Shown here one piece after another: positions 16,564-55,430 of a stretch of DNA of 64,000 bases. The notes beneath the pieces were generated by a model that was not told where the DNA came from, did not search any database, and was given only the letters and a program-made list of their open reading frames with translations. Position 1 is the first letter of the stretch; the number at the start of each line of letters is the position of its first letter. This stretch comes from Clostridia bacterium (lineage in GTDB: Bacteria > Bacillota > Clostridia > Acetivibrionales > UBA4821). Position numbers and translations under genes: made by a program. The stretch spans positions 1,665 to 65,664 of the forward strand of contig JAWLCD010000012.1 in NCBI GenBank assembly GCA_041687355.1, written 5' to 3'.

Positions 16564-16859
16564 CAATAATTGTAAGGAAAATAAATTAACCAGTGAATAA
16601 GTTTATGGAGGAATCATAGATAAACTATGCGAAGTTATGCTAAATTTCAGGAAGAATTGACAGGACGTCAATTCTAGGAATTACTGAGCCACGACGGCAA
16701 ATTAATTCCGGTCTGAAATTTTGTATAACAAGCATCTAGTTTATCTTGATTTCGTAATCCTTATGAGCGGTTAATTTGTTTTCCTGTAAGGTAGGGGGAC
16801 GCGACCATTTGCTCCGCTCAAGGAACTTCCCCCTCTGCACAAGTCAAAGTAAGAAATTA
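16564..16859. repeat. Repeat family A, copy 2 (full length; core 16642-16721)
   Basis: About 95% identical by eye to 50577-50909 apart from one indel block. The core folds as P1 AAATTTCAG/CTGAAATTT, P2 AGAATTGAC/GTCAATTCT and P3 GGAATTA/TAATTCC. Confidence 0.9.
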
Positions 16860-23841: not shown

Positions 23842-24042
23842 GCTCCCCCCTTCTTGCCTGTCATATATATAGACGAAGTTGCTTAACTAATCACTGCAAA
23901 TTTTAACATAACTTCGCATAGATTATCTAGGATTTCATAGTAACAATTGACTACAGAAAATGAGTCTTTTGCATTATGTAAACCAGATGCAGTTATGGCT
24001 TATAATTATTATAGGGAAAAATTTTTAGAAGGAGGAATCCCA

Positions 24043-30647: not shown

Positions 30648-30654
30648 AAAGATA

Positions 30655-30775
30655 CCCCCTTGAGCCTCCGGGGTTAGTTGACGGGTTAGGGTTGAGGTAC
30701 CCCCTCTCGATTCCGAGATTCACCCCTGGAATTTTTATCCCCCGTACTCCGTATGGAGATTCGGCATATCTTTTC
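30655..30775 (-). promoter_or_regulatory. Cyclic-di-AMP riboswitch (ydaO/yuaA motif) in the leader of the SleB-like gene
   Basis: The minus-strand RNA reads GCCGAAUC..ACGGGGGA..CCAGGGGUGAAUC..AGGGGG..CCUAACCCGUCAACUAACCCCGGAGGC. This matches the blocks I recall from the B. subtilis ydaO element (GCGGGGGACCCA, GGGGUGAAUCC, CCGAACCCGUCAGCUAACCUCG). Confidence 0.75.
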
Positions 30776-30934
30776 TTTTATTGTAACAGCCAACTTTACT
30801 TCAGTTCCATACTGAATATTTGGTATAACAGGTATATAAAGCCTTAAATTTTTTTTGTAGACTGTCCATATCTAAAATGGTAGAATTAAAATGAAAATAT
30901 TTACCATGCCAAAATTTCTTTTCCGGAGGTAGTA

Positions 30935-38541: not shown

Positions 38542-38625
38542 ATAAACAGGATTCTAAGATTCAGATGGAGTTTTTTTATCTGAATCTTAGAAGCCGTTAT
38601 CCAGGGGCGCTAGTCATCGGATAAA
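38542..38625 (-). repeat. Repeat family B, copy 1 (short form, reverse orientation)
   Basis: ATAAACAGGATTCTAAGATTCAGAT..ATCTGAATCTTAGAAGCCGTTATCCAGGGGCGCTAGTCATCGGATAAA. It contains a 15-bp perfect hairpin and lacks the internal variable hairpin. Confidence 0.9.
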
Positions 38626-39749
38626 TCTTTGGAGTATATCCTGTAAGTTTTGTATCTCCGACCGCCAAGGTTCTCTATATCTCTACGCATACTTTTATTT
38701 GGTTCACCTATTGTTGACCCTTCTCCCCATTTATAGCCTTTCTGCATGGCATCCTGAAAGATTTTGTAGTATATTGAGTATGATACTCCCTTCTTTCGGA
38801 ATGACGGTATGACAAACATTGTGGTAAACCTTGCGCAGTTAATCTTCCTCTTATACCATAAAAACTTCAGAATACTAAACAAATTTATCTTTCCGTTCAG
38901 ATGTATCAGTACCTGGTTATAATCGGGCACTGCAAAACCGAACCCAATGGGCTGGTCTCCAGCCCTAGCAATTGCCGCCAGTGCAGGGTCGGCAACGGGC
39001 CTGAGCTTTTTCATTGCAGCCTTAATCTCTTTAAGGGATGGCGGAACCAAATCCGCCCACTCATTCGGCATAGCCCTATCAATAATGTATTTGATATCCC
39101 TTGCTTCTTTATCAATATCCGAAAGGTTTATAGTTTCAACCCTGTAATTATATCTGTTCATAGCATACTCTATCTTCTTTCCCGTATCCTCACTGAAGAT
39201 ACCTTCAGGCTCAACCAGATAGGCGTAAATGTCGAGGTCCTTTTTAAAGCCGTACATCTCCATAAACTCCCTGTAGTATTCCGGATTGTATGATGTGAGC
39301 ACCACCGGCGGTCTGTCAAAGCAATCTACCAGAAGACCTTTATAATCATCACCGTCACCACCCACCGACAGCACCGGCCCTCTTATTGAGCTAATCTTCC
39401 TTACCTTGAGCCAGCTCTGGGCAGTATCAAACAGCAGCTTTGCTGCCTCAAAGTCATGGATGCACTCGAATAGACAAAAGTATCCCCTCCGCAAATTCTT
39501 TTTAATATTCAACTCAGTATCCACACCGACACAAATTCTGCCTGCAGGTTGGCCATCCTTCAATATTAGAAACAACTCCTGCTCTCCTCTTTGTTCCTCA
39601 GGCTTTCTACATATGTTAAGCATGGCCTTGGTCTCACTTACAAGCGGCGGCACCCAATTTCTATCTCCCTCGTATATTTTCCAGGGAAGCTTCAGAAATT
39701 CTTTTAGATTCTTCTTCGACCTTCTTATGGGAATAATATTAAGGCTCAT
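38610..39749 (-). CDS. Hypothetical protein, possibly a GNAT-fold acyltransferase (379 aa)
   Basis: The N-terminal LKLPWKIYEGDRNWVPPL motif and a C-terminal FRKKGVSYSIYY segment are GNAT-like. The last 16 nt, including the stop, lie inside repeat B1. Confidence 0.5.
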   Translation of the reverse strand: MSLNIIPIRRSKKNLKEFLKLPWKIYEGDRNWVPPLVSETKAMLNICRKPEEQRGEQELFLILKDGQPAGRICVGVDTELNIKKNLRRGYFCLFECIHDFEAAKLLFDTAQSWLKVRKISSIRGPVLSVGGDGDDYKGLLVDCFDRPPVVLTSYNPEYYREFMEMYGFKKDLDIYAYLVEPEGIFSEDTGKKIEYAMNRYNYRVETINLSDIDKEARDIKYIIDRAMPNEWADLVPPSLKEIKAAMKKLRPVADPALAAIARAGDQPIGFGFAVPDYNQVLIHLNGKINLFSILKFLWYKRKINCARFTTMFVIPSFRKKGVSYSIYYKIFQDAMQKGYKWGEGSTIGEPNKSMRRDIENLGGRRYKTYRIYSKDLSDD

Positions 39750-39775
39750 TTTATACCCCTTGGATACTTTTGCTA

Positions 39776-39953
39776 TTTATCCGATGACTACCGCCGCTAA
39801 GACTCCCCTCGGGAGCATCAAAGATGGACACTATCGCTAAGATTTCTTTGAAATCAAGCGACTAGTAGTCTAAGCAGCGTTACGTCCCTGGATAACGGCT
39901 TCTAAGATTCAGATGAAGATAAAACTCCACCTGAATCCAAGAATCCTGTTTAT
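39776..39953 (+). repeat. Repeat family B, copy 2 (long form)
   Basis: TTTATCCGATGACTACCGCCGCT...CGTCCCTGGATAACGGCTTCTAAGATTCAG...CTGAATCCAAGAATCCTGTTTAT. It is inverted relative to B1. Confidence 0.9.
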
Positions 39954-40017
39954 TAAACAAGTAAAAAGACTTCCACCAACTATTATATAGAATATCAGTG
40001 TTTGTTACAAATAATTG

Positions 40018-40045
40018 TTAATTTGGTTACTTATTCTTCCGATAA
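40018..40045 (+). promoter_or_regulatory. Possible sigma-D/sigma-28-type promoter
   Basis: TTAA, 17-nt spacer, CCGATAA (the -10 block TCCGATAA lies at 40038-40045), about 85 nt upstream of the ATG at 40131. Confidence 0.3.
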
Positions 40046-40130
40046 ATAATTATAAGTAGGAAATTTAGAATCTTGTCTCTTATGCTAAACATACCATGGA
40101 TGAATCGGATTTAACAGGGAGGTTAATTCT

Positions 40131-41219
40131 ATGCGAATTGATAGTTCTGCAATTTCCATGCATTCAAGTTCAACCTTAATTGAAAAGTATCACAAGAGAG
40201 AATCCCTCCGGTATTGGGTTGGGCCTCGACAGCCCGATTCCAGCCAGCAGGAAGCTTCTAAGGCGCTTTCCCAGATGCAGCCCCCAGATATTCTGGAACT
40301 GACTGATGAGGCAAAAAAATTACTGGCAGATAACTGTTCATCTTTGACCGGTATTGAGGATGATGACTCAGAAATACTGGACATCAGCGACAAGGACAAA
40401 CAGAAGATGCTGATGCTCCAGGCAATGCTAGAATCACTCACCGGAAAAAAAATGAGGTTTCTCGTGCCAAAAAGAATAAAGCTTGATGACTCCCAGAGAC
40501 CCATAAAAATTCAGGAGCTCCGGCCTGAAAATCCGACGAAAAATACGCATGGGTGGGGACTTGAGTACGACTATCATGAATCATACTATGAGCGGCAGAC
40601 CTTATCCTTTTCTTCAAATGGTATTGTGAAGACTGCTGATGGCAGGGAGATAAGCTTTTCGGTCGAATTAAACATGGACAGGCAATTTTACTCAGAGCAG
40701 AATATTCAAATCAGAGCCGGAGATGCTGTAAAGGTTGACCCTCTTGTTATTAACTTCGATACAGCAATTTCAGATTTAACCGACCAAAAGATTGAGTTCG
40801 ACCTGGATAGTAACGGTACACCCGAACAAATTTCATTTGTCACTCAGGGGAGTGGTTTCCTAGCACTCGACCTGAACAGTGACGGCAGGATAAATGATGG
40901 CAGTGAGCTATTCGGGCCAAACAGCGGTAACGGCTTTGACGAACTTGCAGCGCATGATTCAGACGGCAACAACTGGATTGATGAAAATGATCCTATCTTC
41001 GAAAAACTGCGCATCTGGACAAAGGACGAAAACGGGAACGATGTGCTATTTGCCCTTGGCCAGAAAGGTATAGGTGCTATATATCTCGGAAATATTTCAA
41101 CACCTTATGATATCAAGAACAGTGAAAATGAACACCATGGAAGCATCAGCCGTACGGGAGTTTTTCTAAAAGAAGACGGCACACCAGGAACAATTCAGCA
41201 CATTGACCTGGTGCTTTGA
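40131..41219 (+). CDS. Hypothetical protein with Ca-binding-type Dx[DN]xDG loops
   Basis: DLDSNGTPE, DLNSDGRINDGSE and HDSDGNNWIDEND are EF-hand/dockerin-like loops. No signal peptide is evident. Confidence 0.6.
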   Translation: MRIDSSAISMHSSSTLIEKYHKRESLRYWVGPRQPDSSQQEASKALSQMQPPDILELTDEAKKLLADNCSSLTGIEDDDSEILDISDKDKQKMLMLQAMLESLTGKKMRFLVPKRIKLDDSQRPIKIQELRPENPTKNTHGWGLEYDYHESYYERQTLSFSSNGIVKTADGREISFSVELNMDRQFYSEQNIQIRAGDAVKVDPLVINFDTAISDLTDQKIEFDLDSNGTPEQISFVTQGSGFLALDLNSDGRINDGSELFGPNSGNGFDELAAHDSDGNNWIDENDPIFEKLRIWTKDENGNDVLFALGQKGIGAIYLGNISTPYDIKNSENEHHGSISRTGVFLKEDGTPGTIQHIDLVL

Positions 41220-41241
41220 TTAATATAATTTCAAGGTATAC

Positions 41242-41277
41242 CCTTCCCATTATATTATGCAATATGGGAAGGTTTTC
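41242..41277 (+). terminator. Terminator
   Basis: CCTTCCCAT / ATGGGAAGG stem followed by TTTT. Confidence 0.7.
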
Positions 41278-41376
41278 GGAAAAGCTCATCTATGAGCTTT
41301 TCCTCATTTATGTCTTCTCTGTTAACCTGTTTTTGTAGTATAATTATATTTAGATTAGTTTTATCGGAGGAATAGT

Positions 41377-42744
41377 ATGACTGAATACGGAGTTGCACTC
41401 GGGGGCGGAGGAGCCAAGGGCGCTTATCAGATTGGAGTGTGGAAAGCGCTTACAGAGCTTGATATGGATTTTAAAACTGTATCCGGAACTTCTGTCGGCG
41501 GACTGAACGGCGCTTTGATTGCCCAGGGTGACTTTAACCTTGCGTATAAGACGTGGGCCGGAATTTCAGTCGAAAAGATAATTAACTTTAACAGTGTCAA
41601 TGGGCTGGAATCTGGCAAACCCATAAAATCATACGGAGTAGTCAAGTCCATAATCAGGTCACTCTGTGTAGGAAGGCTTGATATATCTCCTCTGCAGACG
41701 TTGATAAAGGAAGCAATAGATGAAGAAAAGGTTCGCAAATCCCATATCAACCTGGGTTTAGTATCATATTCTGTTACTGATTTTCAACCTGTCAGCCTCT
41801 TCATCGACCAGATACCCGAAGGGCAGCTCGTGGATTACCTGATTGCCGCGGCCTGCTTCCCCACCTTCAAGCCCTATAAAGTAAACGGCAAGATACTTGT
41901 TGATGGTGGATTGTATGATAATATTCCAATTTCACTTCTGGTTGAAAAAAATATTAAAAATATTATTGCAGTTGATATTACAGATATGGGCGTAAGGAAA
42001 AAGCTTGATACAAGCAGTCTGAACCTGACGTATATCAAACCATCCCAGGACCTGGGCGGAATACTTGACTTCAACGGCGAGAAGTCTGAGCTTCATATCG
42101 AGCTAGGCTATTGTGATACACTTAAACTTTTCGGAAAACTAAAGGGAAAGAAATATTTTCTGCTTCCATCCGAGGATTACAGGAAAAGTAAAGAAAAATA
42201 CATTGAAAGCCTTATGCCGGATGACTTCAGGAAAATGTACAATTACCTTGGGATAGAATGGAACGAGAAGCCGGTACCTGGTAATACCCTTATATTGTAT
42301 AAGGTGCTTGATACTATTAAGGGTTATACAGATTCTCCTTTAAGCGGTGACACCGTTCTCCCGGCAATGGCTGAAATAACCGCCGAACAGCTTGGAATAA
42401 GCCGTGCTAAAAAATATACATTAAACCAGCTTATTGGTGAAATTCTGAACCAGTATCAGGTCATTACAAGCAGCAGTGAGTTTATCGAGTATACTGAGGA
42501 CTTGTCCAGGATAATCTTCAACAAATCAGGAAAAGGCTTGAACATGGAATTAAGAAAAAGCATTGAAAAGGGTAAGTTTGCAGTCTTTTACAGTCCGGAT
42601 TTAGAAAACGATGATGAAAAGCTAAAGGTATTCCGAAGATTCCTTGCCATCACCTTTCCTAGAATCTCAATAGCAAATATGTTTATTTCCCTTATTATAT
42701 CCAAGCAGGAGCAAAGTCCTTCTGAAGCTGTAAAGTTAATTTGA
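41377..42744 (+). CDS. Patatin-like phospholipase
   Basis: GGGGAKG oxyanion motif, GTSVG nucleophile elbow and a DGG catalytic Asp motif. Confidence 0.9.
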   Translation: MTEYGVALGGGGAKGAYQIGVWKALTELDMDFKTVSGTSVGGLNGALIAQGDFNLAYKTWAGISVEKIINFNSVNGLESGKPIKSYGVVKSIIRSLCVGRLDISPLQTLIKEAIDEEKVRKSHINLGLVSYSVTDFQPVSLFIDQIPEGQLVDYLIAAACFPTFKPYKVNGKILVDGGLYDNIPISLLVEKNIKNIIAVDITDMGVRKKLDTSSLNLTYIKPSQDLGGILDFNGEKSELHIELGYCDTLKLFGKLKGKKYFLLPSEDYRKSKEKYIESLMPDDFRKMYNYLGIEWNEKPVPGNTLILYKVLDTIKGYTDSPLSGDTVLPAMAEITAEQLGISRAKKYTLNQLIGEILNQYQVITSSSEFIEYTEDLSRIIFNKSGKGLNMELRKSIEKGKFAVFYSPDLENDDEKLKVFRRFLAITFPRISIANMFISLIISKQEQSPSEAVKLI

Positions 42745-42856
42745 CTTGTATAGAGGGAGAAGCTCCTTGAGTGAAGGGCAAACAAATTAGCAGCTCATAA
42801 GGACTACGAAAGACAACCAGTACCTAGACACCGGTCGTCTTTCGTAGTTAAAAGCA

Positions 42857-43288
42857 TTACATTTTCATAGGTCTTGATGGGAATGAGATTTCTGTCAGTG
42901 CTTCAGATGCCTCTTCGTTGAACCTGTCGTCCACAGCCAGATCACCAAGGGCTACCATACCCACAAGCATATTATTATCAACAACGGGCAGCCTCCTTAT
43001 CTGGTTCTGAGCCATAATCCTCGATGCTTCTGAAGTATCCATATCAGGAGTTACCATGGTAACCTCACTGGACATAACATCCCTGACCGGTGTAGAATCC
43101 GGTGCCTTGCCATGCGCAATATTCCGCACAACAATGTCTCTGTCGGTAACGATTCCGATTACACCACTCTGGTCACAAACAGGTATTGAACCTACATTGT
43201 GCTTTTGCATCAGCTGAGCTGCCTGTGTAACTGTTGACGATGGATTGACATAAGCAACGTCTCTGGTCATTATCTGTTTTATCTTCAA
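42857..43288 (-). CDS. CBS domain-pair protein
   Basis: TTG start at 43288 follows GAGGTGA. There are two CBS repeats (IMTRDV...VGIVTDRDI; VMSSEV...VGMVALGDL). Confidence 0.85.
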   Translation of the reverse strand: MKIKQIMTRDVAYVNPSSTVTQAAQLMQKHNVGSIPVCDQSGVIGIVTDRDIVVRNIAHGKAPDSTPVRDVMSSEVTMVTPDMDTSEASRIMAQNQIRRLPVVDNNMLVGMVALGDLAVDDRFNEEASEALTEISFPSRPMKM

Positions 43289-43346
43289 TGGTATCACCTC
43301 TTTTAATATATTCATAAATAATATTTCCAACATTCTAGAAAATAAT

Positions 43347-43380
43347 CATAAAAAACAGCCGGATAATTTTTTCCGACTGT
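43347..43380 (-). terminator. Terminator
   Basis: On the minus strand, ACAGTCGG / CCGGCTGT stem followed by UUUUUUU. Confidence 0.6.
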
Positions 43381-43400
43381 CTGATATCATTCTATATATT

Positions 43401-44078
43401 TTATTGGAAGAGATTATATTTTTTGAAGATTGACCTTGCTCTCTTTCTTGTGTATCCATTTAATAGTCTTGGTATGTATGCAAACATTCTATATAACATT
43501 ATTCTCATTTTCTTGTTTTTCAGATAGTTTTGAGGTAGTCTGGAAAAGTGTGAAAACTCATTTCCAAATGTAGGTATGAGACTTTTGCCCGGCTCTACAG
43601 CAGATGCAGCGGTTTCTATCGCTGTCGAAGGTGCTGCCTCCTTTAAGCTGCATGCAGGAGTATCCTGAATTGTCCCTGCCGGAATCTCCGGCGAAACAGT
43701 CTCAGCGGGCATACCCGTTTTGCTGTCACTATAAACAGTGTCAGCAGTCGTGTCAGATGCTGAAGTAGTGTTGGTAGTTTCGCTTCTTGCAACATCATAT
43801 GAGTAATTCTGGTAAGAGTTATTGTCCCAATTGTTCCAGTTGTCCCTAAAGCAAAAATTCAATGTATCAGCTATCTCCAGTGGTATTTGAGTCTCAAAGC
43901 CGTCATCTGTGCGTGTCATTTTAATTTCCCTTAGTCCTTCCCACAGCAGCCCGAAACCAAGATGTACGTAGACATCCTCCGCTCCCTGCTGGTACAAGTA
44001 ACCCTTGTAGGTCAGCTTGGCTTTCTTCCCGTGGACCAGATTGTTCTGGTCAATAAAAACGCCGTTTTCTGAATACAT
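43401..44078 (-). CDS. Hypothetical protein, possibly with an N-terminal carbohydrate-binding module
   Basis: LTYKGYLYQQGAEDVYVHLGFG..W......M.......F...I and FCFRDNWNNWDNN resemble CBM25/53-type modules. This is a weak call. Confidence 0.4.
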   Translation of the reverse strand: MYSENGVFIDQNNLVHGKKAKLTYKGYLYQQGAEDVYVHLGFGLLWEGLREIKMTRTDDGFETQIPLEIADTLNFCFRDNWNNWDNNSYQNYSYDVARSETTNTTSASDTTADTVYSDSKTGMPAETVSPEIPAGTIQDTPACSLKEAAPSTAIETAASAVEPGKSLIPTFGNEFSHFSRLPQNYLKNKKMRIMLYRMFAYIPRLLNGYTRKRARSIFKKYNLFQ

Positions 44079-44333
44079 ACTACATTTCCCCTTTAAAAAA
44101 AATTATATATAAATGTCAGGTTTTTCAGACAACAATCGGAGATAGATTTGTGCTTTCCTGCGGACCATCGATGAATTGACTTTTAACGATATACAATTTA
44201 CAAATTATATAAAATCTTACTTCAATATATATAATATACCAAAATTATCGATATGAAAAGACCGGATTTGATTTTTTTCAATATTTTGTAGCATTTTTTG
44301 AGCATAGACTGAAGATGCCGAGTAATATTTGAT

Positions 44334-44687
44334 TTATTCCAGTTTGAATACTTCCTTGAGAATATTAAGAAAATCAGTGTATACTCTGAATTTAACTGCG
44401 ATTACTATAAACACTTGAAGCGCAATAATAGCCGGTATGCCATACTTGAAAGCCGCATGCCTTGTCTTATGCCGAAACCTGTACATACCGGCAAGAGCAC
44501 CAACTGCTCCTCCTGCCAGCGATATGAGGAGAAGCGTCTTCTCCTTCACCCTCCATAGGCCTTCACGTGCGCGCCTTTTATCGTACCACATAAGAAAAAA
44601 AGCAATGAAATTCACTGCCGTTAGATATAGTAATATATTTTTTGTATTAAAAAGTATAAATACCGGATTATCCATATTTTCTTCCAT
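44334..44687 (-). CDS. DUF1294 membrane protein
   Basis: YDKRRAREGLWRVKEKTLLLISLAGGAVGALAGMYRFRHKTRH is the DUF1294 signature. Confidence 0.8.
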   Translation of the reverse strand: MEENMDNPVFILFNTKNILLYLTAVNFIAFFLMWYDKRRAREGLWRVKEKTLLLISLAGGAVGALAGMYRFRHKTRHAAFKYGIPAIIALQVFIVIAVKFRVYTDFLNILKEVFKLE

Positions 44688-44708
44688 CCATTGACCGTTT
44701 TTTTTATT

Positions 44709-45851
44709 TTACCCGTCAATATTTTCAGTTTTGTTATTTAACTCTCGAACTATATATTCTGCCATCTCAACACAGCCGTTTGGTTTACAAATCTGTTTGG
44801 CACTTTCCTTCATGCAGCTCAGCTTATCCTTGTCTTTCAGAAGTTGTGAAAGTATATCTATAAGCTCAGACAGGTTGTGTGCATGGTGAGAGCACCCGTT
44901 TCTAAGAAGGTATTTAGCATTCTCATTTTCCTGACCTGCCGGACTGCCAAAGACAACCATTGGAACGTTCATATTCAGTACCTCAGTGGTAGTAATTCCT
45001 CCAGGTTTTGAAACTACAATGTCCGACCCCTTCATTAACTCATGAATGTTATCAACAAATCCAAAAACCTTAATTCTATCCCTATAATCAGCCGTCGCCT
45101 TCTCAACCGCTTCCCTCAGAGCTTTATTTTTTCCACAGGCAATAATGAATTGTGCTTCGGGTTTTATTTCATATAACAACTTCCCCGCTTCCCGGAAATT
45201 GCGCAAAACGCCATGAGCTCCGGCAAGAAGAGTAACTACAGGCAAATTATAATTCTCCAGTCCGTACTTGCAAAAGAACCTTTCCTTGTCGATGGTCCCA
45301 CATTCAATACAAACCGGTATTCCTGTAACACTTATTTTTTCCTCATCTATACCCTGGTCAGTGAGTTCCTTCTTCATGCATTCATCGCCGATAAAATACC
45401 TTGACACCCCTTGATCAATCCACTGGCTGTGTACACCATAATCAGTTATTATGGTGTAACAGGGCACCTTTGTCTTTCCTTTTCTGTAGAGCATTGGCAT
45501 AGCAAGTACAGGAAACGTATTGATAACAACACTAGGCTTAAATTCCTCAAGGTATTCCTTTAATTTCTTTCTGCCCATTAGGCCGTTTATAAAATTCAGA
45601 TAAAGGTTGGTTCTGATATCCTTGGTCAGGTAGTAGATGAAACCATAAAACTGTGGCATATGTGAATAGCAATTCAGATATAGTTCCCTTATAATCTTAT
45701 TCAGTAATGGATGAGCTTCAAGAAAAAGGTTTACAACCTTCACTTCTATTGTCTCATCCTGTTTATTTATCTCATTTTTTAGACTTCCTGCTGCTTTGAT
45801 ATGCCCATCTCCATAATTTGTTGTTAATATAAGAACCCTTTTATTGTCCAT
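44709..45851 (-). CDS. MGDG-synthase family (GT28) diacylglycerol glycosyltransferase, UgtP/YpfP-like
   Basis: VLILTTNYGDGHIKAA at the N-terminus and SKPGGITTTE plus the Q.E.EN. motif at the C-terminus. Confidence 0.85.
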   Translation of the reverse strand: MDNKRVLILTTNYGDGHIKAAGSLKNEINKQDETIEVKVVNLFLEAHPLLNKIIRELYLNCYSHMPQFYGFIYYLTKDIRTNLYLNFINGLMGRKKLKEYLEEFKPSVVINTFPVLAMPMLYRKGKTKVPCYTIITDYGVHSQWIDQGVSRYFIGDECMKKELTDQGIDEEKISVTGIPVCIECGTIDKERFFCKYGLENYNLPVVTLLAGAHGVLRNFREAGKLLYEIKPEAQFIIACGKNKALREAVEKATADYRDRIKVFGFVDNIHELMKGSDIVVSKPGGITTTEVLNMNVPMVVFGSPAGQENENAKYLLRNGCSHHAHNLSELIDILSQLLKDKDKLSCMKESAKQICKPNGCVEMAEYIVRELNNKTENIDG

Positions 45852-45938
45852 TTATTTCTCCTTTACTATTGTGATTCTCTCGTCATATCTTTTTAGCATG
45901 CAGCTAGCTATTCTACAGCTTACCTGTCTACCTCGTAT

Positions 45939-47165
45939 TCAGGTAGTAATGCCCTTAAGATGCCCCTTTTTATTTATCAAGTAATAAAGCAGCGATAGTA
46001 CAAGTAATATTATACCACTAAAATAGAATGTGTAGTGTAAACTTGTATAACTTCCAATTAAACCTCCCAGAAGAGGCCCTATTGACCTGCCTATTCCCTC
46101 TATGGTCGAAAACACTCCCCAAATAACACCTTTGCTGCCCTCAGCAACATTACTCGATAATATGGTGTACCAGGCCGGTAGGACAAGAGAATAAGATACT
46201 GCAATAATCAATCCAAAAAATAATACATATATAAAGCTTCTTAAACTGCCCATCCCGAAAATACCGACCGATGCTGACAAAAGTCCAAATACAAAAAGGT
46301 TCTGTGACTTAAAAACCTCTGCAACCTTACCAAAAAACATCATCAATACGACGGTAATACCTCCGATTGCTCCAAGTGTAAGGCCATATTGATTAATTGA
46401 GAGACCTATATAGTCGTTATCAGTCAGAAACTTCGGTATTACAGGAGCTAATGCTGCAATACTGAACGTCTGTAAAAACATTCCCGGTATCAGGTGTCTG
46501 GTTCGGCATATGTCGTTAAATACTCCTTTATGCAAGAGCCCTTTTGGATTATTTTGCCCGGAATTTGAACGTATGCCTTCTCTTATAAATAGAACCAGAA
46601 CCATGCAAAGTATCCAAATACCTGCCATAATGTTCAAGGTAGCGTTATATCCAAGACTGGAAATTAAGAAGTTTACTGAAACTGACCCCAGGCCTAACCC
46701 GACAAGCCATGCTGAGTATATCATGCCCATCCCTGAGGCTCTTTTCCCTTCTTTCATTGACGATACATATCCAAGTACCACCAACCAGACAGGCGCAAAT
46801 CCCAATCCAATCAGTGTGCCTCCTGCAACTAATAAAACCGGCGATGTGATAAACTGGAATGCGTAAAGAGAAAACAGTGATAGAATAAGCCCGGATAGCA
46901 GAATAGCTTTATTATTAAACCTGTCCAACAGCCATCCTATCCCTATCTTGGATACTGTTTCCCCAAAAAAATATGCAAAAATTATTGTACCCACTACAGC
47001 TTCTGAGAGTATAAGAGTACTATAGGAATATAACGGGAGGTAATTCAGAAAAGCCCCCCTCACAAATTCAGTCAGCCCAATCAAGGCTGTAAACTTAATC
47101 AATTCTGCACTACCTGTACGGTTGGTTAAAGCATCAGAAGCATGTCCCATATTTACTTTCCCCAA
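45939..47165 (-). CDS. MFS transporter
   Basis: 408 aa with about 12 TM helices. It lies immediately upstream of the UgtP-like gene. Confidence 0.85.
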   Translation of the reverse strand: MGKVNMGHASDALTNRTGSAELIKFTALIGLTEFVRGAFLNYLPLYSYSTLILSEAVVGTIIFAYFFGETVSKIGIGWLLDRFNNKAILLSGLILSLFSLYAFQFITSPVLLVAGGTLIGLGFAPVWLVVLGYVSSMKEGKRASGMGMIYSAWLVGLGLGSVSVNFLISSLGYNATLNIMAGIWILCMVLVLFIREGIRSNSGQNNPKGLLHKGVFNDICRTRHLIPGMFLQTFSIAALAPVIPKFLTDNDYIGLSINQYGLTLGAIGGITVVLMMFFGKVAEVFKSQNLFVFGLLSASVGIFGMGSLRSFIYVLFFGLIIAVSYSLVLPAWYTILSSNVAEGSKGVIWGVFSTIEGIGRSIGPLLGGLIGSYTSLHYTFYFSGIILLVLSLLYYLINKKGHLKGITT

Positions 47166-47218
47166 AATACGTTCATATTTGTCCTGAGTATTATTTGTAC
47201 CAGATTTGAATTAAATTC

Positions 47219-47353
47219 ATAAACAGGATTCTTGGGATTCAGGTGGAGTATTATCTCCAACTGAATCTTAGAAGCCGTTATCCAGGGGCGTAGCGCCGCT
47301 TGTCTCCTACTTGAAGAAGAGAGGAGTCTTAGCGGCGGTAGTCATCGGATAAA
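47219..47353 (-). repeat. Repeat family B, copy 3 (reverse orientation)
   Basis: Its reverse complement aligns end to end with B4 (50353-50488). Confidence 0.9.
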
Positions 47354-47367
47354 TCCAACCTTCTCCA

Positions 47368-48165
47368 TTAATCCGGTTGGCCCATTATCCGTTCAACGTA
47401 GTCCTTTGTTCTAGGGACAACTGTCTTATTGAATTGGTCAAGCATCCTTAGTGCATTATCCCCTTCCCAATTCGGACCGAGCACTTCAGCTGGAAGCACA
47501 GGGTCTGACTTCATTATCTCGGTAAAGTCATGAATAAAATTGTGGCAAAAAGCTATCAGCTTATCATCTCCTGAGTTCCATGGACTTAAAGCGGGAGGAT
47601 ATTGAATCGTAAACTCCATATACTTTCTCTTTACATCCTCAATATCCCATATTTCCCTGACCACTTCATAAACATTGTGAAAGCTTGCAAGTCTGGATAT
47701 AAAAACTTTTACATATTTCGCAACATTTAATTCCTCAGCTTTCGATTCCACATCCTTTGATAAATCATAAGGATGTATATAACATCCTCTGCCCAACTTT
47801 CCGAACCCGAGCTTCCTAATATATTCAATAAAAATGGTTCTTTCATCAGTATTACTCTGTATATCCTCTATAACAAGACACCAATAGCCGTTCCACCCAC
47901 TTTTTCTGTAGGAAATCTTCTTCCAGAAATTCTGTTTCAATTCTTTCCATTCTTCAATACTTCTCAGACCATTTTCGCGTATCTCATAAAATACGCGGTC
48001 CCCTTCTCTGACATTTTTCAATACTCCAGCTTTTACAGCCCTTGACAGTCCCATTCTTATTGCCGTCTCATTCTTGTCGAAAGATTTCATTAAATGGAAT
48101 AGTTTCTTAAGTGATATACTTGTTATATTCCTCGGAAGTAAAAAAGAACTGAACAGAAATAACAC
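47368..48165 (-). CDS. PaaX-family transcriptional regulator-like protein
   Basis: N-terminal winged-helix region (..ETAIRMGLSRAVKAGVLKNVREGDRVFYEIRENG). The C-terminal PaaX_C-like region ends ..DPVLPAEVLGPNWEG. Confidence 0.65.
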   Translation of the reverse strand: MLFLFSSFLLPRNITSISLKKLFHLMKSFDKNETAIRMGLSRAVKAGVLKNVREGDRVFYEIRENGLRSIEEWKELKQNFWKKISYRKSGWNGYWCLVIEDIQSNTDERTIFIEYIRKLGFGKLGRGCYIHPYDLSKDVESKAEELNVAKYVKVFISRLASFHNVYEVVREIWDIEDVKRKYMEFTIQYPPALSPWNSGDDKLIAFCHNFIHDFTEIMKSDPVLPAEVLGPNWEGDNALRMLDQFNKTVVPRTKDYVERIMGQPD

Positions 48166-48345
48166 AACACTAGAGATTGCGTCACTTTTCCTGATTATTA
48201 ACTTATTAATTGTTATCCCCCCTTTAAAATGTTATAACCCTTATATCATAAGAAGCACATTTTAAAAGTAGATTAATAATGCAGTCTATCACACTGCCTA
48301 TCAATAGAATATTCCGTTATATGTTTCCAATAAGTGAGTAATTCT

Positions 48346-48381
48346 CTATAAAATAATAAAATCCTCTTTTTGGAGGATTTT
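48346..48381 (-). terminator. Terminator after the FAD oxidoreductase gene
   Basis: On the minus strand, AAAATCCTC / GAGGATTTT stem followed by AUUAUUUUAU. Confidence 0.7.
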
Positions 48382-48396
48382 ATTGAATAATATATA

Positions 48397-49854
48397 TTAT
48401 CCCTTCTCCGGCAGTGGAATTCCAAACCTTTTTTCCGGGGATTCTGTTTTGGTTTCATGATATTCTGGCTCGGTGTTTATACTCCATATATCATTTCGTT
48501 CACCATATAGTATGTTCCTGGCAGCATATAGTCCGGTCATTATTGAATGATCCATATTGTTGTATCTGTACGTCCCGTATCTTCCTACCGGCTGCAAATT
48601 GCTAAATCTGCTCAGCGCCTCCCTGATATTCTTCAGGTAGTTCTTATAACCCGTAAAATACACAGGGTAAGCTTTCGGAACTCTCACTACAAAACCATCC
48701 TCAACGAGGCTTTTTTCTGTAAGTCCAACCTTTTCAACTTCGTCAAGTGCAATGCTCATCATTTGTTTATCGGGAAGTGACCAAAATTCATCCCCTTCAG
48801 TACAGAAATATTCAAGTCCAAGCGTTGTTTTTGAGTTATCAGCAACCATATATGAACTCCAATTTTTAAAGTTCTGTACTCTTCCAAGCTTAACTTCAGG
48901 TGAATGGACATATATCCAATTGTCCGGAAAGCACTCTTCTTTATTTACTATAATATCTATGTTTATCAGGCTCCTATAGTTAAGCGCCTGTGCAGAATCA
49001 ATGATATCACTATCAAGACTTGGGGTTATTATCTGTACAAGCTCGGTTATGGGCATACTTGAAATCACATGTTCTGCTTCTACGGTTCTTTCCACACCAT
49101 TCTTATCTGCATAAGTAATACCTTTAACAGTGTATCCGTCTCTCTCAAGCCGTACTATCCGACAGCCTAAGTTGACTCTCCCTCCAACGTTTATAATCTT
49201 CTGTGCCATCTTCTCATACATCATCCCAGGCCCGTATTTCGGATACATGAATTCTTCAATCAGTGTTTTTATGTTTGTCGACTTGGGTTTAAATAATGCG
49301 TTGCATACCGCTGAATAAAGCGACAGCCCCTTTATCCTTTGAGCCGCCCAGTCAGCACCAATACTGCTGCAGGGAATACCCCATACTTTCTCAGTGTAAG
49401 TCTTAAAGAACATAGAATAAAGTTTGTAGCCAAATCTGTTTGTTACCCAATCCTCCAGGGTCTTTTCATCTTCTATGGGAGATAGTTTGGCTTTAATATA
49501 ACTTAAAACCACTGAAGCAGTATCGCCTACACCAATATTTGATAATGCGTTCAAGGGCTTCAAAGGATAATCAAAAAACCTGTTATTATAATATATCCTC
49601 GAAAGCCTTGGGGTCTTAACAAAATCGTCACCGAGTGTGTCCGCCCACATTCTGTTGACTTCGTCGAACTTTGTAAAAAATCTGTGGCCACCCAAATCAA
49701 AATAATAGCCTTTGTAATTAATTGTTTTGCTTATACCACCTACGGTATCTTCAGCTTCAAATACTTCTACATCTGCACCGTTTTTAGCTAATTGAAGTGC
49801 CGCCGCAAGGCCTGCAGGGCCTGCACCAATTACTATGGTCTTAACATTACCCAT
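48397..49854 (-). CDS. FAD-dependent oxidoreductase (amine-oxidase / UDP-galactopyranose-mutase-like fold)
   Basis: N-terminal dinucleotide-binding motif IVIGAGPAGLAAA..L......V.VFEA...VGG. Confidence 0.85.
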   Translation of the reverse strand: MGNVKTIVIGAGPAGLAAALQLAKNGADVEVFEAEDTVGGISKTINYKGYYFDLGGHRFFTKFDEVNRMWADTLGDDFVKTPRLSRIYYNNRFFDYPLKPLNALSNIGVGDTASVVLSYIKAKLSPIEDEKTLEDWVTNRFGYKLYSMFFKTYTEKVWGIPCSSIGADWAAQRIKGLSLYSAVCNALFKPKSTNIKTLIEEFMYPKYGPGMMYEKMAQKIINVGGRVNLGCRIVRLERDGYTVKGITYADKNGVERTVEAEHVISSMPITELVQIITPSLDSDIIDSAQALNYRSLINIDIIVNKEECFPDNWIYVHSPEVKLGRVQNFKNWSSYMVADNSKTTLGLEYFCTEGDEFWSLPDKQMMSIALDEVEKVGLTEKSLVEDGFVVRVPKAYPVYFTGYKNYLKNIREALSRFSNLQPVGRYGTYRYNNMDHSIMTGLYAARNILYGERNDIWSINTEPEYHETKTESPEKRFGIPLPEKG

Positions 49855-49882
49855 GACTTATCTCTTCCCCTTTCGTGCAAAT

Positions 49883-50302
49883 CTACCTGTTGAAGACCAG
49901 GAATTTTCTCGCAGTAAAATTCCATATCAGTGTTACTACCGTTGTTATTATTCTTGCTGCCATTGGAATAAATACCAAAACCTCAACCAAAAACCTCATA
50001 ACCACAACACTAAGTATCAATCCAGCAGCACCTATCAATGTAAAATAGATAAATTCGGGCAGTATTTGCGTTCTGCCGACATTAAATACCCATGCTCTCG
50101 ACAGAATGTAATTTACCAGCGTTCCTAACGAAAAAGATACAACCAATGCAGTGATGTATCCTGTAAACAAGAAACTCATGCTGCAGAAAAATACCGCCCA
50201 GTCCACTACTGTTGCCACTCCACCAACTACTGCATACCTGACAAATTGAACGGTTATCTTATCAGATTTATGAAGAATCAACTGCTTGATTATTCCTTCC
50301 AT
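49883..50302 (-). CDS. GtrA-family membrane protein
   Basis: 139 aa with four TM helices. VRYAVVGGVATVVDWAVFF is the GtrA signature. Confidence 0.85.
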   Translation of the reverse strand: MEGIIKQLILHKSDKITVQFVRYAVVGGVATVVDWAVFFCSMSFLFTGYITALVVSFSLGTLVNYILSRAWVFNVGRTQILPEFIYFTLIGAAGLILSVVVMRFLVEVLVFIPMAARIITTVVTLIWNFTARKFLVFNR

Positions 50303-50352
50303 TCAGACCTCCCCAGGAGATAAACATACTTGATGTTTCTAAGTACATCAGT

Positions 50353-50488
50353 TTTATCCGATGACTACCGCCGCTAAGACTCTCCCTCTTCTTCATGTGG
50401 GGGAGAAGCGGCGCTACGTCCCTGGATAACGGCTTCTAAGATTCAGTTGGAGATAAAAACTCCATTTGAATCCAAGAATCCTGTTTAT
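50353..50488 (+). repeat. Repeat family B, copy 4
   Basis: TTTATCCGATGACTACCGCCGCTAAGACTCTCCC..GGGGGAGAAGCGGCGCTACGTCCCTGGATAACGGCTTCTAAGATTCAG..TTGAATCCAAGAATCCTGTTTAT. It is inverted relative to B3. Confidence 0.9.
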
Positions 50489-50576: not shown

Positions 50577-50909
50577 CAATAAATATAAGGAAAATGAATT
50601 AACTGGTGAATAAGTTTATGGAGAAATCCAAATGCTATCGGGTAGCCCAGGGCATACGGCTGGGACTTGTGCCCAGACAAAGCCCGGGCCTACAATTATA
50701 CTCAATTTCAGGAAGAATTGACAGGACGTCAATTCTAGGAATTATTGAGCCACGACGGCGAATTAATTCCGGTCTGAAATTTGGTATAACAAGCATCTAG
50801 TTTATCTTGATTTCGTAGTCCTTATGAGCGGTTAATTTATTTTCCTGTAAGGTAGGGGGACGCGGCCATTCGCTTCGCTCAAGGAACTTTCCCCTCTGCA
50901 CAAGTCAAA
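50577..50909. repeat. Repeat family A, copy 3 (core 50703-50782; contains an extra GC-rich block at about 50640-50690)
   Basis: Near-identical to 16564-16859 on both sides of the indel block. Confidence 0.9.
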
Positions 50910-54506: not shown

Positions 54507-54512
54507 GTAAAG

Positions 54513-55430
54513 TTAGTTTAACTCAAGCTTGCCGATAAGCTGCTCGAGGCTTGTAAACCCATATTTCCACATATAGTCTTCGATGCCGTCAATAATATTC
54601 ACTGCGGCTTCCGGCTCCATAAAATTCGCTGTACCCACCGAAACAGCAGAAGCTCCTGCAAGAAGGAATTCTACTGCATCTTCTCCGGTCACTATTCCTC
54701 CCATTCCGATAACCGGAATATTAACTGCCATTGCAGCCTGCCATACCATTCTTACTGCAACAGGCTTTACACATGGCCCTGACAGGCCTCCTGTATTATT
54801 TGCAAGTACCGGCTTACGTGAATGAACATCAATTGACATTGCCAACAGTGTATTAATCAGGGAAATAGCGTCTGCGCCGGCATCCTCAGCTCCCTTTGCA
54901 GGCTCTTCAATACTTGTCACATTCGGGGTAAGCTTAACTATCAGTGGCTTGCTGCATACTTCCCTTACCCTCTGTGTTACCTCCTTTACACCCGCGTATG
55001 ATGTGCCAAATGCCACACATCCGGCTTTAACATTAGGACATGAAAGGTTAAGCTCAATTCCGTCGATATCCGCATCCCTGAGTTCCGAAGCAACAGCAAC
55101 ATATTCCTCAATAGTCTTTCCAACAATGTTTACAATAACTCGGGTATCAAAAGTTCTCAGCCACGGCAAATCATTAACAATAAATGATTTGATACCGGGG
55201 TTTTGGAGCCCAATGGCATTCATCATACCCCCAGGTGTCTCACAGGTTCTGGGTGGTTTGTTACCAGACCAGGGCTCTGCTGACGTTCCTTTTGTTACGA
55301 TAGCTCCAAGTCTGCCGATATCTATGTAATCTGCATACTCTCTCCCATAACCGAAGGTTCCTGAAGAAACCATAACCGGATTCTTCATTCTAATTCCTGC
55401 AATGTTTACTTCAGTATTGATTACTGACAT
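54513..55430 (-). CDS. pyrD: Dihydroorotate dehydrogenase B, catalytic subunit
   Basis: Class 1B signature (NPVMVSSGTFGYG, NAIGLQNPG, LSCPN). Confidence 0.93.
   Translation of the reverse strand: MSVINTEVNIAGIRMKNPVMVSSGTFGYGREYADYIDIGRLGAIVTKGTSAEPWSGNKPPRTCETPGGMMNAIGLQNPGIKSFIVNDLPWLRTFDTRVIVNIVGKTIEEYVAVASELRDADIDGIELNLSCPNVKAGCVAFGTSYAGVKEVTQRVREVCSKPLIVKLTPNVTSIEEPAKGAEDAGADAISLINTLLAMSIDVHSRKPVLANNTGGLSGPCVKPVAVRMVWQAAMAVNIPVIGMGGIVTGEDAVEFLLAGASAVSVGTANFMEPEAAVNIIDGIEDYMWKYGFTSLEQLIGKLELN

What the first reader, a model, noticed from the sequence alone, without database searches (positions are those of the whole stretch)
38542..50488. Repeat family B: four copies of an 84-178-nt structured element arranged as two inverted pairs that bracket whole genes
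Seen in sequence: copies lie at 38542-38625 (-), 39776-39953 (+), 47219-47353 (-) and 50353-50488 (+). All share sharp ends, TTTATCCGATGAC... and ...GAATCCTGTTTAT, so TTTAT is present at both ends. All share a possible closing helix TTATCC/GGATAA. All carry a 13-15-bp hairpin (TTCTAAGATTCAG...CTGAATC(C/T)(A/T)AGAA) that is perfect in the short copy. A variable internal hairpin (CCGCCGCT...AGCGGCG) is absent from copy 1 and enlarged in copy 2. Pair 1 flanks the GNAT-like gene, whose last codons ..DLSDD-stop are supplied by the repeat. Pair 2 flanks the GtrA, FAD-oxidoreductase and PaaX-like genes. In both cases the enclosed genes are on the minus strand, so a transcript starting upstream of the distal copy would carry complementary 5' and 3' ends of 85-135 nt. 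Inference (alternatives): (i) inverted repeats mediating DNA inversion or cassette exchange in an envelope-glycosylation locus; (ii) mRNA panhandle or RNase III processing signals; (iii) non-autonomous mobile elements or an orphan structured RNA, for example derived from IS200/IS605-type ends. I cannot decide among these from sequence alone.
Basis: partly seen in the sequence, partly recalled or inferred. Interest (0 to 1): 0.65.

Follow-up and report, generated by a model that had tools for sequence, protein, structure and literature searches.

The report
Small TTTAT-targeting mobile hairpin repeat
The four repeats are copies of a small, gene-less mobile DNA element that inserts just after the sequence TTTAT and is widespread in Clostridia; their apparent pairing around genes is incidental, so this is an ordinary but undescribed family of selfish repeats.

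Summary
Four sharply bounded copies (84, 178, 135 and 136 nt) lie exactly where stated, and a covariance model finds no others in the window. The significance given to "inverted pairs bracketing genes" is not supported.

The element is a dispersed multi-copy repeat:
- At least 36 core matches occur in one related Clostridia MAG, several as head-to-tail arrays that share one TTTAT.
- More than 150 further copies occur in metagenomes and Clostridium prophages, and one lies on a C. tetani plasmid; 133 distinct insertion sites in all.

An orthologous locus (about 80% identical) lacks copies 2 and 3. It carries a three-copy array where the window has only TTTAT after a terminator.

The element has no terminal inverted repeats and makes no target-site duplication. 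The left pentamer is TTTAT-like and varies from copy to copy. The right pentamer (TTTAT, TTGAT or TTAAT) is specific to each subfamily. Two hairpin domains are conserved, with 30 of 37 pairs showing compensatory changes.

This anatomy matches a non-autonomous IS200/IS605-type element (PATE-like), and it resembles B. cereus bcr1. No transposase partner was found, so the mechanism is inferred. I found no evidence of inversion, and no RNA data were available.

The parts
38542..38625 (-). Copy 1, short form (84 nt). It has the closing helix P1 and hairpin 2 but lacks the inner hairpin of domain 1. Its first 16 nt supply the last codons (..LSDD) and the stop of ORF 38610-39749.
   Evidence: 77.4 bits, E 1.3e-14
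39776..39953 (+). Copy 2, long form (178 nt), with a ~60-nt extra hairpin module at the tip of domain 1. It lies between divergent genes. The orthologous site in L011 is empty (GGTTAT^CTCAC).
47219..47353 (-). Copy 3, standard form (135 nt). It lies between the PaaX-like gene (47368-48165) and the MFS transporter gene (45939-47165) and is co-oriented with both. The orthologous spacer in L011 holds unrelated sequence and no element.
50353..50488 (+). Copy 4, standard form (136 nt). It lies between the GtrA gene (-) and a TwoAYGGAY RNA plus a PMT_2-family gene (+).
43348..43352 (-). Unoccupied target. TTTAT (minus strand) lies in the T-tail of the terminator hairpin 43353-43382. The orthologous position in L011 (2807-3239) carries three tandem copies, and the right junction is identical (TTTAT|GATTATTTTC).
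16615..16629 (-). Unoccupied target. The hairpin CATAG-ATAAA-CTATG lies at the 5' end of a TwoAYGGAY RNA. The loop reads TTTAT on the minus strand. In 11 TwoAYGGAY copies of related MAGs the element sits exactly here.

Best explanation
The four repeats are copies of a non-autonomous, gene-less mobile DNA element of 84-234 nt (median 134). It has the anatomy of an IS200/IS605-type element, that is, a PATE-like 'miniature' element.

Shown:
- The unit is CCGATGAC...CTGTT(T/G/A)AT.
- It sits immediately 3' of a TTTAT-like pentamer, always in the same orientation relative to that pentamer.
- It has no terminal inverted repeats and makes no target-site duplication.
- A new copy can land on the TTTAT that ends a resident copy. 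This gives head-to-tail arrays that share a single pentamer.
- The element folds into two conserved hairpin domains.
- An internal GGATAA is complementary to the flanking TTAT plus the element's first two bases, CC.

Inferred:
- A Y1 HUH transposase (TnpA) encoded elsewhere mobilises the element in trans.
- The transposase excises one strand as a circle (junction CTGTTTAT|CCGATGAC) and pastes it 3' of TTTAT in single-stranded DNA.
- The hairpins serve as protein-binding sites.
- The GGATAA/TTATCC pairing acts as a DNA guide that specifies the cleavage and target site.

The positions around the GNAT-like gene and around the GtrA, oxidoreductase and PaaX-like genes are by-products of independent insertions into intergenic TTTAT sites.
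For: Copy number and spread:
- 31 loci with 36+ copies were found, almost all in one Clostridia MAG. One further copy lies in a Lutispora MAG and one in a Clostridiaceae MAG.
- 9 viral and at least 120 metagenome loci match a degenerate core.
- The covariance model gives 107 + 53 further hits.
- One copy at 72% identity lies on C. tetani plasmid NC_022778.1.
- In metagenome contigs the element's depth is 100-166 against about 3 for its flanks.

Mobility:
- L011 is syntenic with window 39211-48164 at about 80% identity.
- The copy 2 site is empty there.
- A triple array in L011 corresponds to a bare TTTAT in the window, with an exact right junction.
- TwoAYGGAY hairpin loops exist both filled and empty.
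- A ~50-nt mini-copy with a different right end (TTAAT) is nested inside a prophage copy.

End anatomy:
- There are 133 distinct sites.
- The left pentamer is TTTAT in 67% of them, with copy-specific variants.
- The right pentamer is subfamily-specific.
- In the TTGAT (13) and TTAAT (6) subfamilies, left never equals right, so there is no TSD.
- Nothing is conserved outside the pentamers.
- Tandem junctions share one pentamer.

Structure:
- 94.1% of cells are paired.
- 30 of 37 pairs show changes on both sides.
- The covariation score is 0.246, against 0.087 for shuffled and about 0.035 for slid controls.

Precedent:
- ISGst2 (IS605 family) has TAM TTTAT and a TEM that differs at positions 3 and 5. 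It also has PATE derivatives and guide/TAM pairing (bioRxiv 10.1101/2023.03.14.532601).
- Group A IStrons insert 3' of TTGAT, ATTAT or TTTAT without a TSD or TIRs (PMC4227781).
Against: - No transposase was found. A recalled IS200 TnpA query gave no tblastn hit in 1.06 Mb of flanking DNA (the query is a lead only). No recurrent transposase-like gene cluster lies near copies. Scans of viral contigs for the left end alone or the right end alone gave only more gene-less copies and chance hits.
- The left-end structure is unusual for IS200/IS605. In the shortest copies the only left-end 'hairpin' is formed by the target pentamer pairing with GGATAA.
- The two hairpins share only a motif (YTCTAA...AAGAR with an A-rich internal loop) and not overall sequence.
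- No position could be shown to covary with the third base of the right pentamer independently of subfamily.
- Variation in GGATAA could not be assessed, because the search pattern required it.
- Orientation relative to replication is 2:2 within one replichore of the window.
- The expected preference for hairpin-adjacent targets is not general (p = 0.5).
Confidence: 0.6

Rival explanations
1. The element moves by site-specific recombination at a TTTAT core. A tyrosine or serine recombinase would act on a folded or duplex site, as was proposed for the B. cereus bcr repeats. This would replace HUH single-strand transposition.
For: - The literature on bcr1-bcr3 links their mobility to a 'site-specific recombination-like mechanism' with TTTAT motifs (PMC6542083).
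- A pentamer sits at both junctions, and arrays share one pentamer.
- The C. tetani plasmid that carries a copy encodes a tyrosine recombinase, although about 9 kb away.
Against: - Left and right pentamers differ systematically in whole subfamilies. Simple core-for-core recombination does not predict this.
- No recombinase recurs near copies.
- The ends are asymmetric, with no inverted core-binding arms.
Confidence: 0.13
2. The element is primarily a functional structured RNA whose spread is secondary to its RNA function. It could be a cis-acting stabiliser or processing site, or an omega-RNA-like guide scaffold for a TnpB encoded elsewhere (a PATE-borne guide RNA with TAM TTTAT).
For: - The fold is strongly conserved with compensatory changes.
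- Hairpin tips carry modular expansions.
- Between same-strand genes, 11 copies are co-oriented with them and 2 are not.
- PATEs often encode omega RNAs, and TnpB2 of ISGst2 uses TAM TTTAT.
- bcr1 is transcribed (PMC3184786).
Against: - No Rfam family matches, even at E <= 10.
- Mismatches in stems show no RNA-type bias (G.T 94, A.C 84).
- 11 copies lie antisense inside TwoAYGGAY RNAs.
- The minimal copies (84 nt, and about 50 nt for the nested one) are shorter than known TnpB scaffolds. This comparison rests on established knowledge and was not tested here.
- No RNA-seq runs were available.
- Co-orientation with genes is equally predicted by lagging-strand targeting.
Confidence: 0.12
3. The inverted copies act as recombination sites for programmed inversion or cassette exchange of the enclosed envelope-glycosylation genes.
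For: Inverted copies about 90% identical flank 1.15 kb and 3.0 kb segments. Homologous recombination between them is physically possible.
Against: - The pairs are not conserved in the orthologous locus.
- No invertase is encoded nearby.
- Most copies elsewhere are solo or in direct tandem.
- No strand-changing joints appear in four metagenome runs, although this test is weak.
Confidence: 0.03
4. The inverted pairs create mRNA panhandles or RNase III sites that regulate the enclosed genes.
For: A minus-strand transcript that began beyond the distal copy would carry complementary ends of 85-135 nt.
Against: - Copy 2 and copy 3 are absent at the orthologous genes.
- No transcript data were available.
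- The arrangement is not seen as a recurring pattern among 133 sites.
Confidence: 0.03

Closest known systems
IS200/IS605-family non-autonomous derivatives (PATEs), e.g. the ISGst1/ISGst5-related PATEs of Geobacillus stearothermophilus, and ISGst2 (TAM TTTAT)
   Same: - Both have no terminal inverted repeats and make no target-site duplication.
- Both insert in a fixed orientation 3' of a T-rich pentamer (TTTAT).
- In both, the right end carries an element-encoded motif that resembles the target but differs at position 3.
- Both have subterminal hairpins on one strand.
- Both have an internal sequence complementary to the cleavage or target site.
- Both are gene-less, multi-copy and presumably mobilised in trans.
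   Different: - No cognate tnpA or tnpB was found.
- There is no detectable sequence similarity to anything in the plasmid or phage collections except one C. tetani copy.
- The left end of minimal copies has no hairpin of its own. The target pentamer itself pairs with GGATAA.
- The unit can be as small as about 50 nt.
- The right-end motif can be identical to the target, which produces tandem arrays.
bcr1 (and bcr2, bcr3) repeats of the Bacillus cereus group
   Same: Taken from the literature: bcr1 is about 155 bp and present in tens of copies at non-conserved positions. It has TTTAT at both ends and a predicted fold of two independent stem-loops kept by compensatory changes. It is often found in UTRs and operon spacers and is considered a special class of non-autonomous mobile element (PMC3184786, PMC6542083, PMC3446304).
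   Different: - bcr1 occurs in a different phylogenetic group (Bacillus rather than Clostridia).
- blastn of the element against 72,556 plasmids gave no Bacillus hit. bcr1 copies are reported on B. cereus group plasmids, so no sequence similarity is detectable.
- The bcr1 sequence itself was not available to me, so homology at the structure level was not tested.
- bcr1's TTTATs are described as 5-bp direct repeats, whereas a duplication is excluded here.
Group A IStrons (CdISt1-like)
   Same: They insert 3' of TTGAT, ATTAT or TTTAT, with specificity at the 5' side only. They make no duplication, have no terminal inverted repeats, and occur in Clostridia (PMC4227781).
   Different: IStrons carry a group I intron and IS200/IS605 ORFs and end in TCAG. 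No intron or ORF is present here, and Rfam finds no group I intron.
Classical bacterial MITEs (Correia/NEMIS, RUP, BOX, ERIC)
   Same: They are small, multi-copy, intergenic, structured repeats without genes. They can fuse to ORF ends and be co-transcribed.
   Different: Classical MITEs have terminal inverted repeats and target-site duplications made by DDE transposases. Both features were tested here and are absent.

Membership tests
IS200/IS605-type non-autonomous element (PATE-like) | No terminal inverted repeats | tested here: met
   The left end CCGATGACTA and the reverse complement of the right end, ATAAACAGGA, are unrelated.
IS200/IS605-type non-autonomous element (PATE-like) | No target-site duplication | tested here: met
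   In 19 solo copies whose right pentamer is TTGAT or TTAAT, the left pentamer is never the same. Overall 51 of 117 solo copies have left different from right.
IS200/IS605-type non-autonomous element (PATE-like) | Orientation-specific insertion 3' of a conserved tetra- or pentanucleotide that pre-exists at the empty site | tested here: met
   The left pentamer is TTTAT in 83 of 123 sites, and the rest are one-base variants. Three kinds of empty site each carry one (T/G)TTAT at the insertion point.
IS200/IS605-type non-autonomous element (PATE-like) | Subterminal imperfect hairpins at both ends, on the same strand, conserved in structure | tested here: met
   Two hairpin domains are present, with 30 of 37 pairs changed on both sides. 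Both carry a YTCTAA...AAGAR motif with an A-rich internal loop (consensus). Caveat: the shortest copies lack the left inner hairpin.
IS200/IS605-type non-autonomous element (PATE-like) | Internal DNA guide that pairs with the cleavage sites and covaries with them | tested here: inconclusive
   GGATAA is complementary to TTATCC (target TTAT plus CC), with a few compensatory changes at the CC/GG positions. The search pattern fixed GGATAA, and no column covaries cleanly with the right-end motif.
IS200/IS605-type non-autonomous element (PATE-like) | A cognate Y1 (HUH) TnpA in the same genomes, ideally in an autonomous element with the same ends | tested here: not met
   None was found in 1.06 Mb of held flanks or in viral-contig scans. 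The MAGs are incomplete and whole genomes could not be rescanned, so absence is not shown.
IS200/IS605-type non-autonomous element (PATE-like) | Strand bias towards the lagging-strand template | tested here: inconclusive
   The window is one replichore by GC skew and holds 2 copies on each strand. Copies are co-oriented with flanking same-strand genes 11 times against 2, but replication direction is unknown for those contigs.
Classical MITE (DDE-transposase derived) | Terminal inverted repeats plus a target-site duplication | tested here: not met
bcr1-type repeat (B. cereus group) | Sequence or structural homology to the bcr1 consensus | not tested
   The bcr1 sequence is not held. The only indirect result is that blastn found no hit on Bacillus plasmids. 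The shared features (TTTAT ends, two stem-loops, about 150 nt, multi-copy) are taken from the literature.
Known RNA family (Rfam 15), including IS605-associated and omega-RNA motifs | A match to a curated covariance model | tested here: not met
   There is no hit at gathering thresholds in the window and only chance-level hits at E <= 10 around copies 1 and 2.
Invertible DNA segment | Inverted repeats conserved as a pair around the segment, a nearby invertase, and both orientations present in reads | tested here: not met
   The pairs are not conserved in the ortholog. No recombinase lies among the neighbouring genes. No strand-change joints were seen, though the short contigs make this test weak.
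Integron attC site | R''/R' core sites RYYYAAC / GTTRRRY, with co-oriented sites separated by cassettes | tested here: not met
   The ends read GGATAAC and GTTTAT(C), which do not fit the consensus. Copies occur in both orientations and as direct tandems without cassettes.

The most novel reading that the evidence does not exclude
The family may be a minimal, guide-programmed single-strand transposon. A unit of about 50 nt would be enough to move: the first bases CC, the guide GGATAAC, one hairpin and a terminal TTNAT. Its left-end 'hairpin' would be created only by pairing of the internal guide with the target TTTAT. Alternatively or in addition, its transcript running into the right flank could serve as a compact omega-RNA-like guide for a TnpB with TAM TTTAT encoded elsewhere. 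That would make each copy an RNA-guided homing device.
Probability: 0.15. Interest if true: 0.6.

Novelty: new member of a known kind. Interest (0 to 1): 0.33.

Why it matters
- For annotation: the element explains sharply bounded, structured intergenic repeats in many Clostridia, their prophages and a C. tetani toxin plasmid. It should be masked or modelled before anyone proposes riboswitches, terminators or inversion switches there.
- It breaks short-read assemblies at its copies.
- It alters gene ends. In this window it supplies the last four codons and the stop of a gene.
- It splits TwoAYGGAY RNAs.
- For transposon biology: the family has several unusual features. Its right-end motif can equal its target, it builds tandem arrays, and copies of about 50-84 nt lack a left hairpin. 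If a cognate TnpA is found, it would be a compact natural system for studying guide-DNA-directed target choice.
- It also suggests that the long-unexplained TTTAT-flanked bcr1 repeats of the B. cereus group may move in the same way.

Tried and rejected
- Rfam at gathering and at E <= 10: nothing relevant.
- blastn against phage genomes: no match. Against plasmids: a single C. tetani copy.
- Transposase search: tblastn with a recalled IS200 TnpA found nothing. All-against-all clustering of 1,271 flanking ORFs gave only histidine kinases and phage replication genes as recurrent families.
- A regex search for left and right ends far apart was too noisy.
- Scans of viral contigs for the left end alone or the right end alone found only more gene-less copies and chance hits in coding DNA.
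- L030, a copy without a left end next to a 183-aa ORF, is just a 5'-truncated copy.
- Idea that targets are hairpin-adjacent (terminator tails, TwoAYGGAY loop): true for many copies in one MAG. It is not general, since the upstream 45-nt fold energy equals the downstream one (p = 0.5).
- Idea that the sense strand folds as RNA: no excess of G.T over A.C mismatches.
- Search for a guide position covarying with the right-end motif: confounded by subfamily.
- Inversion or empty-site joints in metagenome contigs: none, but the contigs are 150-800 nt and break at the repeat.
- RNA runs: none listed.
- Promoter and terminator scan: the elements are not called as terminators, and only one weak promoter-like match spans the end of copy 4.
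- Literature search for the element's sequence strings: only chance primer matches.

Full report
**1.
Aligned in one orientation they share the ends TTTATCCGATGAC... and ...GAATCCTGTTTAT, and homology stops at those points. An invariant 25-mer occurs four times against none expected. Each copy folds into two domains (z about -5.4 to -6.7 on either strand).
- Domain 1 is closed by UUAUCCG/UGGAUAA. It encloses a GAC/GUC helix and a variable inner hairpin. That hairpin is missing in copy 1, and in copy 2 it carries a ~60-nt extra module.
- Domain 2 is a long hairpin, followed by UCCUGUUUAU.

No Rfam family matches, even permissively. A covariance model built later from the family recovers just these four copies in the window. 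The ORF 38610-39749 ends ...KDLSDD* inside copy 1. The 'GNAT' label for it is borderline. The GtrA, flavin oxidoreductase and PaaX-like assignments are sound.

**2. It is a dispersed, multi-copy family, not a local device.**
- An exact 23-mer from the core hits 31 stretches in the species-representative genome set. Nearly all belong to one MAG ('Clostridia bacterium 30dZY2.bin.108'). One lies in a Lutispora MAG and one in a Clostridiaceae MAG.
- With mismatches allowed there are 48 core hits in the window plus these loci.
- Several loci carry two or three copies head to tail. Successive copies share a single pentamer (junction ...CCTGTTTAT|CCGATGAC...).
The model confirms 107 + 53 members among them.
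- blastn finds one diverged copy (72% identity, full length) on C. tetani plasmid p12124569, about 3.5 kb from tetX.
- The viral copies sit in prophages distantly related to C. tetani phages.
- In sediment and landfill metagenomes that contain the window's organism at depth about 3, the element's word depth is 100-166. Many different sequences abut it at exactly 39775/39776 and 39953.

**3. Orthologous filled and empty sites show that it moves.**
Locus L011 from the MAG is collinear with window 39211-48164 at about 80% identity. Four comparisons follow.
- At copy 2, L011 reads ...GCTTTCGCTGGTTAT|CTCACAATTAAA.... The window reads ...ACTTTTGCTATTTAT[173 nt]TAAACAAGTAAA....
- L011 carries three tandem copies (2807-3239, minus strand). 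The window has only the terminator hairpin 43353-43382 followed by TTTTTTAT|GATTATTTTC. The right junction in L011...CCTGTTTAT|GATTATTTTC, is exact. The left junction has 10 extra bases that I cannot explain.
- At copy 3, L011 has about 125 nt of unrelated spacer and no element.
- Within the MAG lineage, 11 copies sit in the loop of the hairpin CATAG-ATAAA-CTATG at the 5' end of TwoAYGGAY RNAs, antisense to that RNA. The window's own TwoAYGGAY at 16604-16760 and three MAG copies have the loop uninterrupted.

The two 'pairs' of the finding are therefore independent insertions. The genes they bracket are conserved without them.

**4. Anatomy of the ends.**
Across 133 distinct insertion sites, nothing is conserved outside the two pentamers.
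- The left pentamer is TTTAT in 83 of 123 sites. Otherwise it is a one-base variant (TTTGT, TTCAT, TTTAC and others) that differs from copy to copy, even among close relatives.
- The right pentamer is fixed within subfamilies: TTTAT (97), TTGAT (13) or TTAAT (7).
- In the TTGAT and TTAAT subfamilies the left pentamer is never the same as the right one.

This excludes a target-site duplication. It identifies the left pentamer as the pre-existing target and the right one as part of the element. There are no terminal inverted repeats. An element whose own end is TTTAT recreates its target, which explains the arrays that share one pentamer.

**5. The fold is under selection, but not demonstrably as RNA.**
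On the 107-member alignment, 94.1% of cells pair and 30 of 37 pairs show changes on both sides. The covariation score is 0.246, against 0.087 for shuffles and about 0.035 for slid controls. One caveat is that this alignment was fitted to the model. The 35-member MAFFT alignment gives the same direction of result with less diversity.

The C. tetani copy replaces CCGCCGCT/AGCGGCG by AAGCTCT/AGAGCTT and GATTCAG/CTGAATC by GTTTTA/TAAAGC. Mismatches in stems are as often A.C as G.T (84 against 94). There is thus no sign that one strand is selected as RNA. That is what one expects of a DNA element whose copies decay, or of hairpins needed in DNA.

Both hairpins, and the optional ~60-nt modules at their tips, are of one type. 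Each has an outer stem YTCT/AGAR, an A-rich internal loop and an inner stem (sequences). I read these as repeated binding sites for one protein; this is inference.

**6. Mechanism.**
The following features together are the signature of IS200/IS605-family elements and their gene-less PATE derivatives:
- no inverted repeats;
- no duplication;
- orientation-specific insertion 3' of a T-rich pentamer;
- an element-encoded right-end motif that resembles the target but can differ at position 3;
- subterminal hairpins;
- an internal sequence (GGATAA) complementary to the target TTAT plus the first two element bases.

Published precedents fit this reading.
- G. stearothermophilus ISGst2 has TAM TTTAT and TEM TTCAC ('minor differences at positions 3 and 5'). 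It also shows guide-TAM pairing, PATE relatives and trans-mobilisation by one TnpA.
- Group A IStrons of Clostridia insert after TTGAT, ATTAT or TTTAT without a duplication.

I therefore propose peel-and-paste transposition by a Y1 HUH transposase supplied in trans. The transposase itself was not found. The held DNA is only about 1 Mb of flanks from incomplete MAGs and metagenome contigs, so this is missing evidence and does not count against the proposal.

Three points do not fit the canonical family.
- The shortest copies have no left hairpin except the one made by the target pairing with GGATAA. These are the 84-nt copy 1 and a ~50-nt copy with TEM TTAAT nested inside a prophage copy.
- The strand distribution in the window is 2:2 within one replichore.
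- Guide covariation could not be shown.

**7. Comparison with known elements.**
In behaviour, the closest described analogue is bcr1 of the B. cereus group. bcr1 is about 155 bp with TTTAT at both ends and two independent stem-loops kept by compensatory changes. It is present in tens of copies at non-conserved sites and is often in UTRs. I could not obtain its sequence. blastn shows no similarity to Bacillus plasmids. bcr1's TTTATs are described as direct repeats and its movement as 'site-specific recombination-like'. The present family shows that such a pattern can arise without duplication, which may be worth re-testing for bcr1. Classical MITEs, attC sites, invertible segments and Rfam RNAs each fail a defining feature (see the membership table).

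**8. Consequences in this window.**
- Copy 1 replaced the 3' end of a gene.
- Copy 3 makes up nearly the whole spacer of a PaaX-like/MFS operon and would be co-transcribed.
- Copies 2 and 4 lie in divergent promoter regions.
- Between same-strand genes, copies are co-oriented with them 11 times against 2. This fits either lagging-strand targeting or selection against antisense structures.
- Recombination between the inverted copies could in principle invert 1.15 kb or 3.0 kb, but nothing indicates that it does.

**9. Verdict.**
This is a real, sharply defined repeat. It is an apparently undescribed family of a known kind of selfish element, widespread in Clostridia and their prophages. The gene-bracketing arrangement is incidental. 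I put the claim that it is a mobile non-autonomous element at about 0.9. For the IS200/IS605-type mechanism specifically I put it at about 0.55.

Noticed in passing
window 16604-16760 (+), 50689-50796 (+), partial 12248-12332 (+), 23899-23934 (inverted 5' piece); L003:3133-3516: TwoAYGGAY RNAs (Rfam RF01731) are multi-copy here and in the same metagenomes (depth about 50-60 against 3). In L003 a whole TwoAYGGAY unit sits between two orthologous genes where the window has only 8 nt (54506-54514). The unit carries the terminal inverted repeats AGGGGAAATAAATTAAC / GTTAATTTATTTCCCCT and has the hairpin element nested inside it. TwoAYGGAY therefore itself behaves like an insertion or mobile unit. 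Its 5' hairpin loop is a hot spot for the element.
   Followed up: partly
window 9222-9576 (+) and 13001-13056 (+): A complete tmRNA gene (tag ADKSELALAA) is present. A second copy of its last 56 nt, 84% identical, lies 3.4 kb downstream, like the att duplication left by an island integrated into ssrA. The interval encodes no integrase. It holds a 651-aa Fe-hydrogenase-like/MCP-signalling protein and part of a TwoAYGGAY-related repeat.
   Followed up: partly
window 30648-30776 (-): A c-di-AMP riboswitch (ydaO/yuaA type) scores 73 bits.
   Followed up: no
window 40131-41219 (+); L011:572-702: A 362-aa ORF with no family match lies just downstream of copy 2. It is absent from the orthologous locus L011, where about 130 nt join the same flanks. 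This is a 1.1-kb gene-sized indel next to the element.
   Followed up: partly
L032:4001-4138 (NC_022778.1 46702-46839): A diverged full-length copy of the element lies on the C. tetani plasmid p12124569. It sits in an intergenic region about 3.5 kb from tetX and is unannotated in the record.
   Followed up: partly
L164:9774-9975, L166, L168, L170-L172, L174; L034:5963-6097; L036:4384-4499: The element occupies the same site in a group of Clostridium prophages, next to a weak RinA-like regulator gene, and takes three forms there. The first is a simple 135-nt copy. The second is that copy with a ~50-nt miniature copy (right end TTAAT) nested in the 5' arm of hairpin 2. The third is a 116-nt derivative made by deletion between the two GGATAACGA repeats.
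   Followed up: yes
window 39811-39871; L011:2825-2885; L019, L022, L023, L027: Optional ~60-nt modules sit at the tip of hairpin 1 (GAGCATCAAAGATGGACAC...) or hairpin 2 (CACAAGGTGGACAATGATTTC...). They resemble each other and the core hairpins (CUAAG...AAG internal loop). It is not clear whether they are expansions, nested insertions or remnants of a longer ancestor.
   Followed up: no
L011:3229-3252 (minus strand): At the left junction of the triple array, ten extra bases (GTTGTTTTTT) lie between the original TTTAT and the first CCGATAAC. A precise insertion does not explain them.
   Followed up: no
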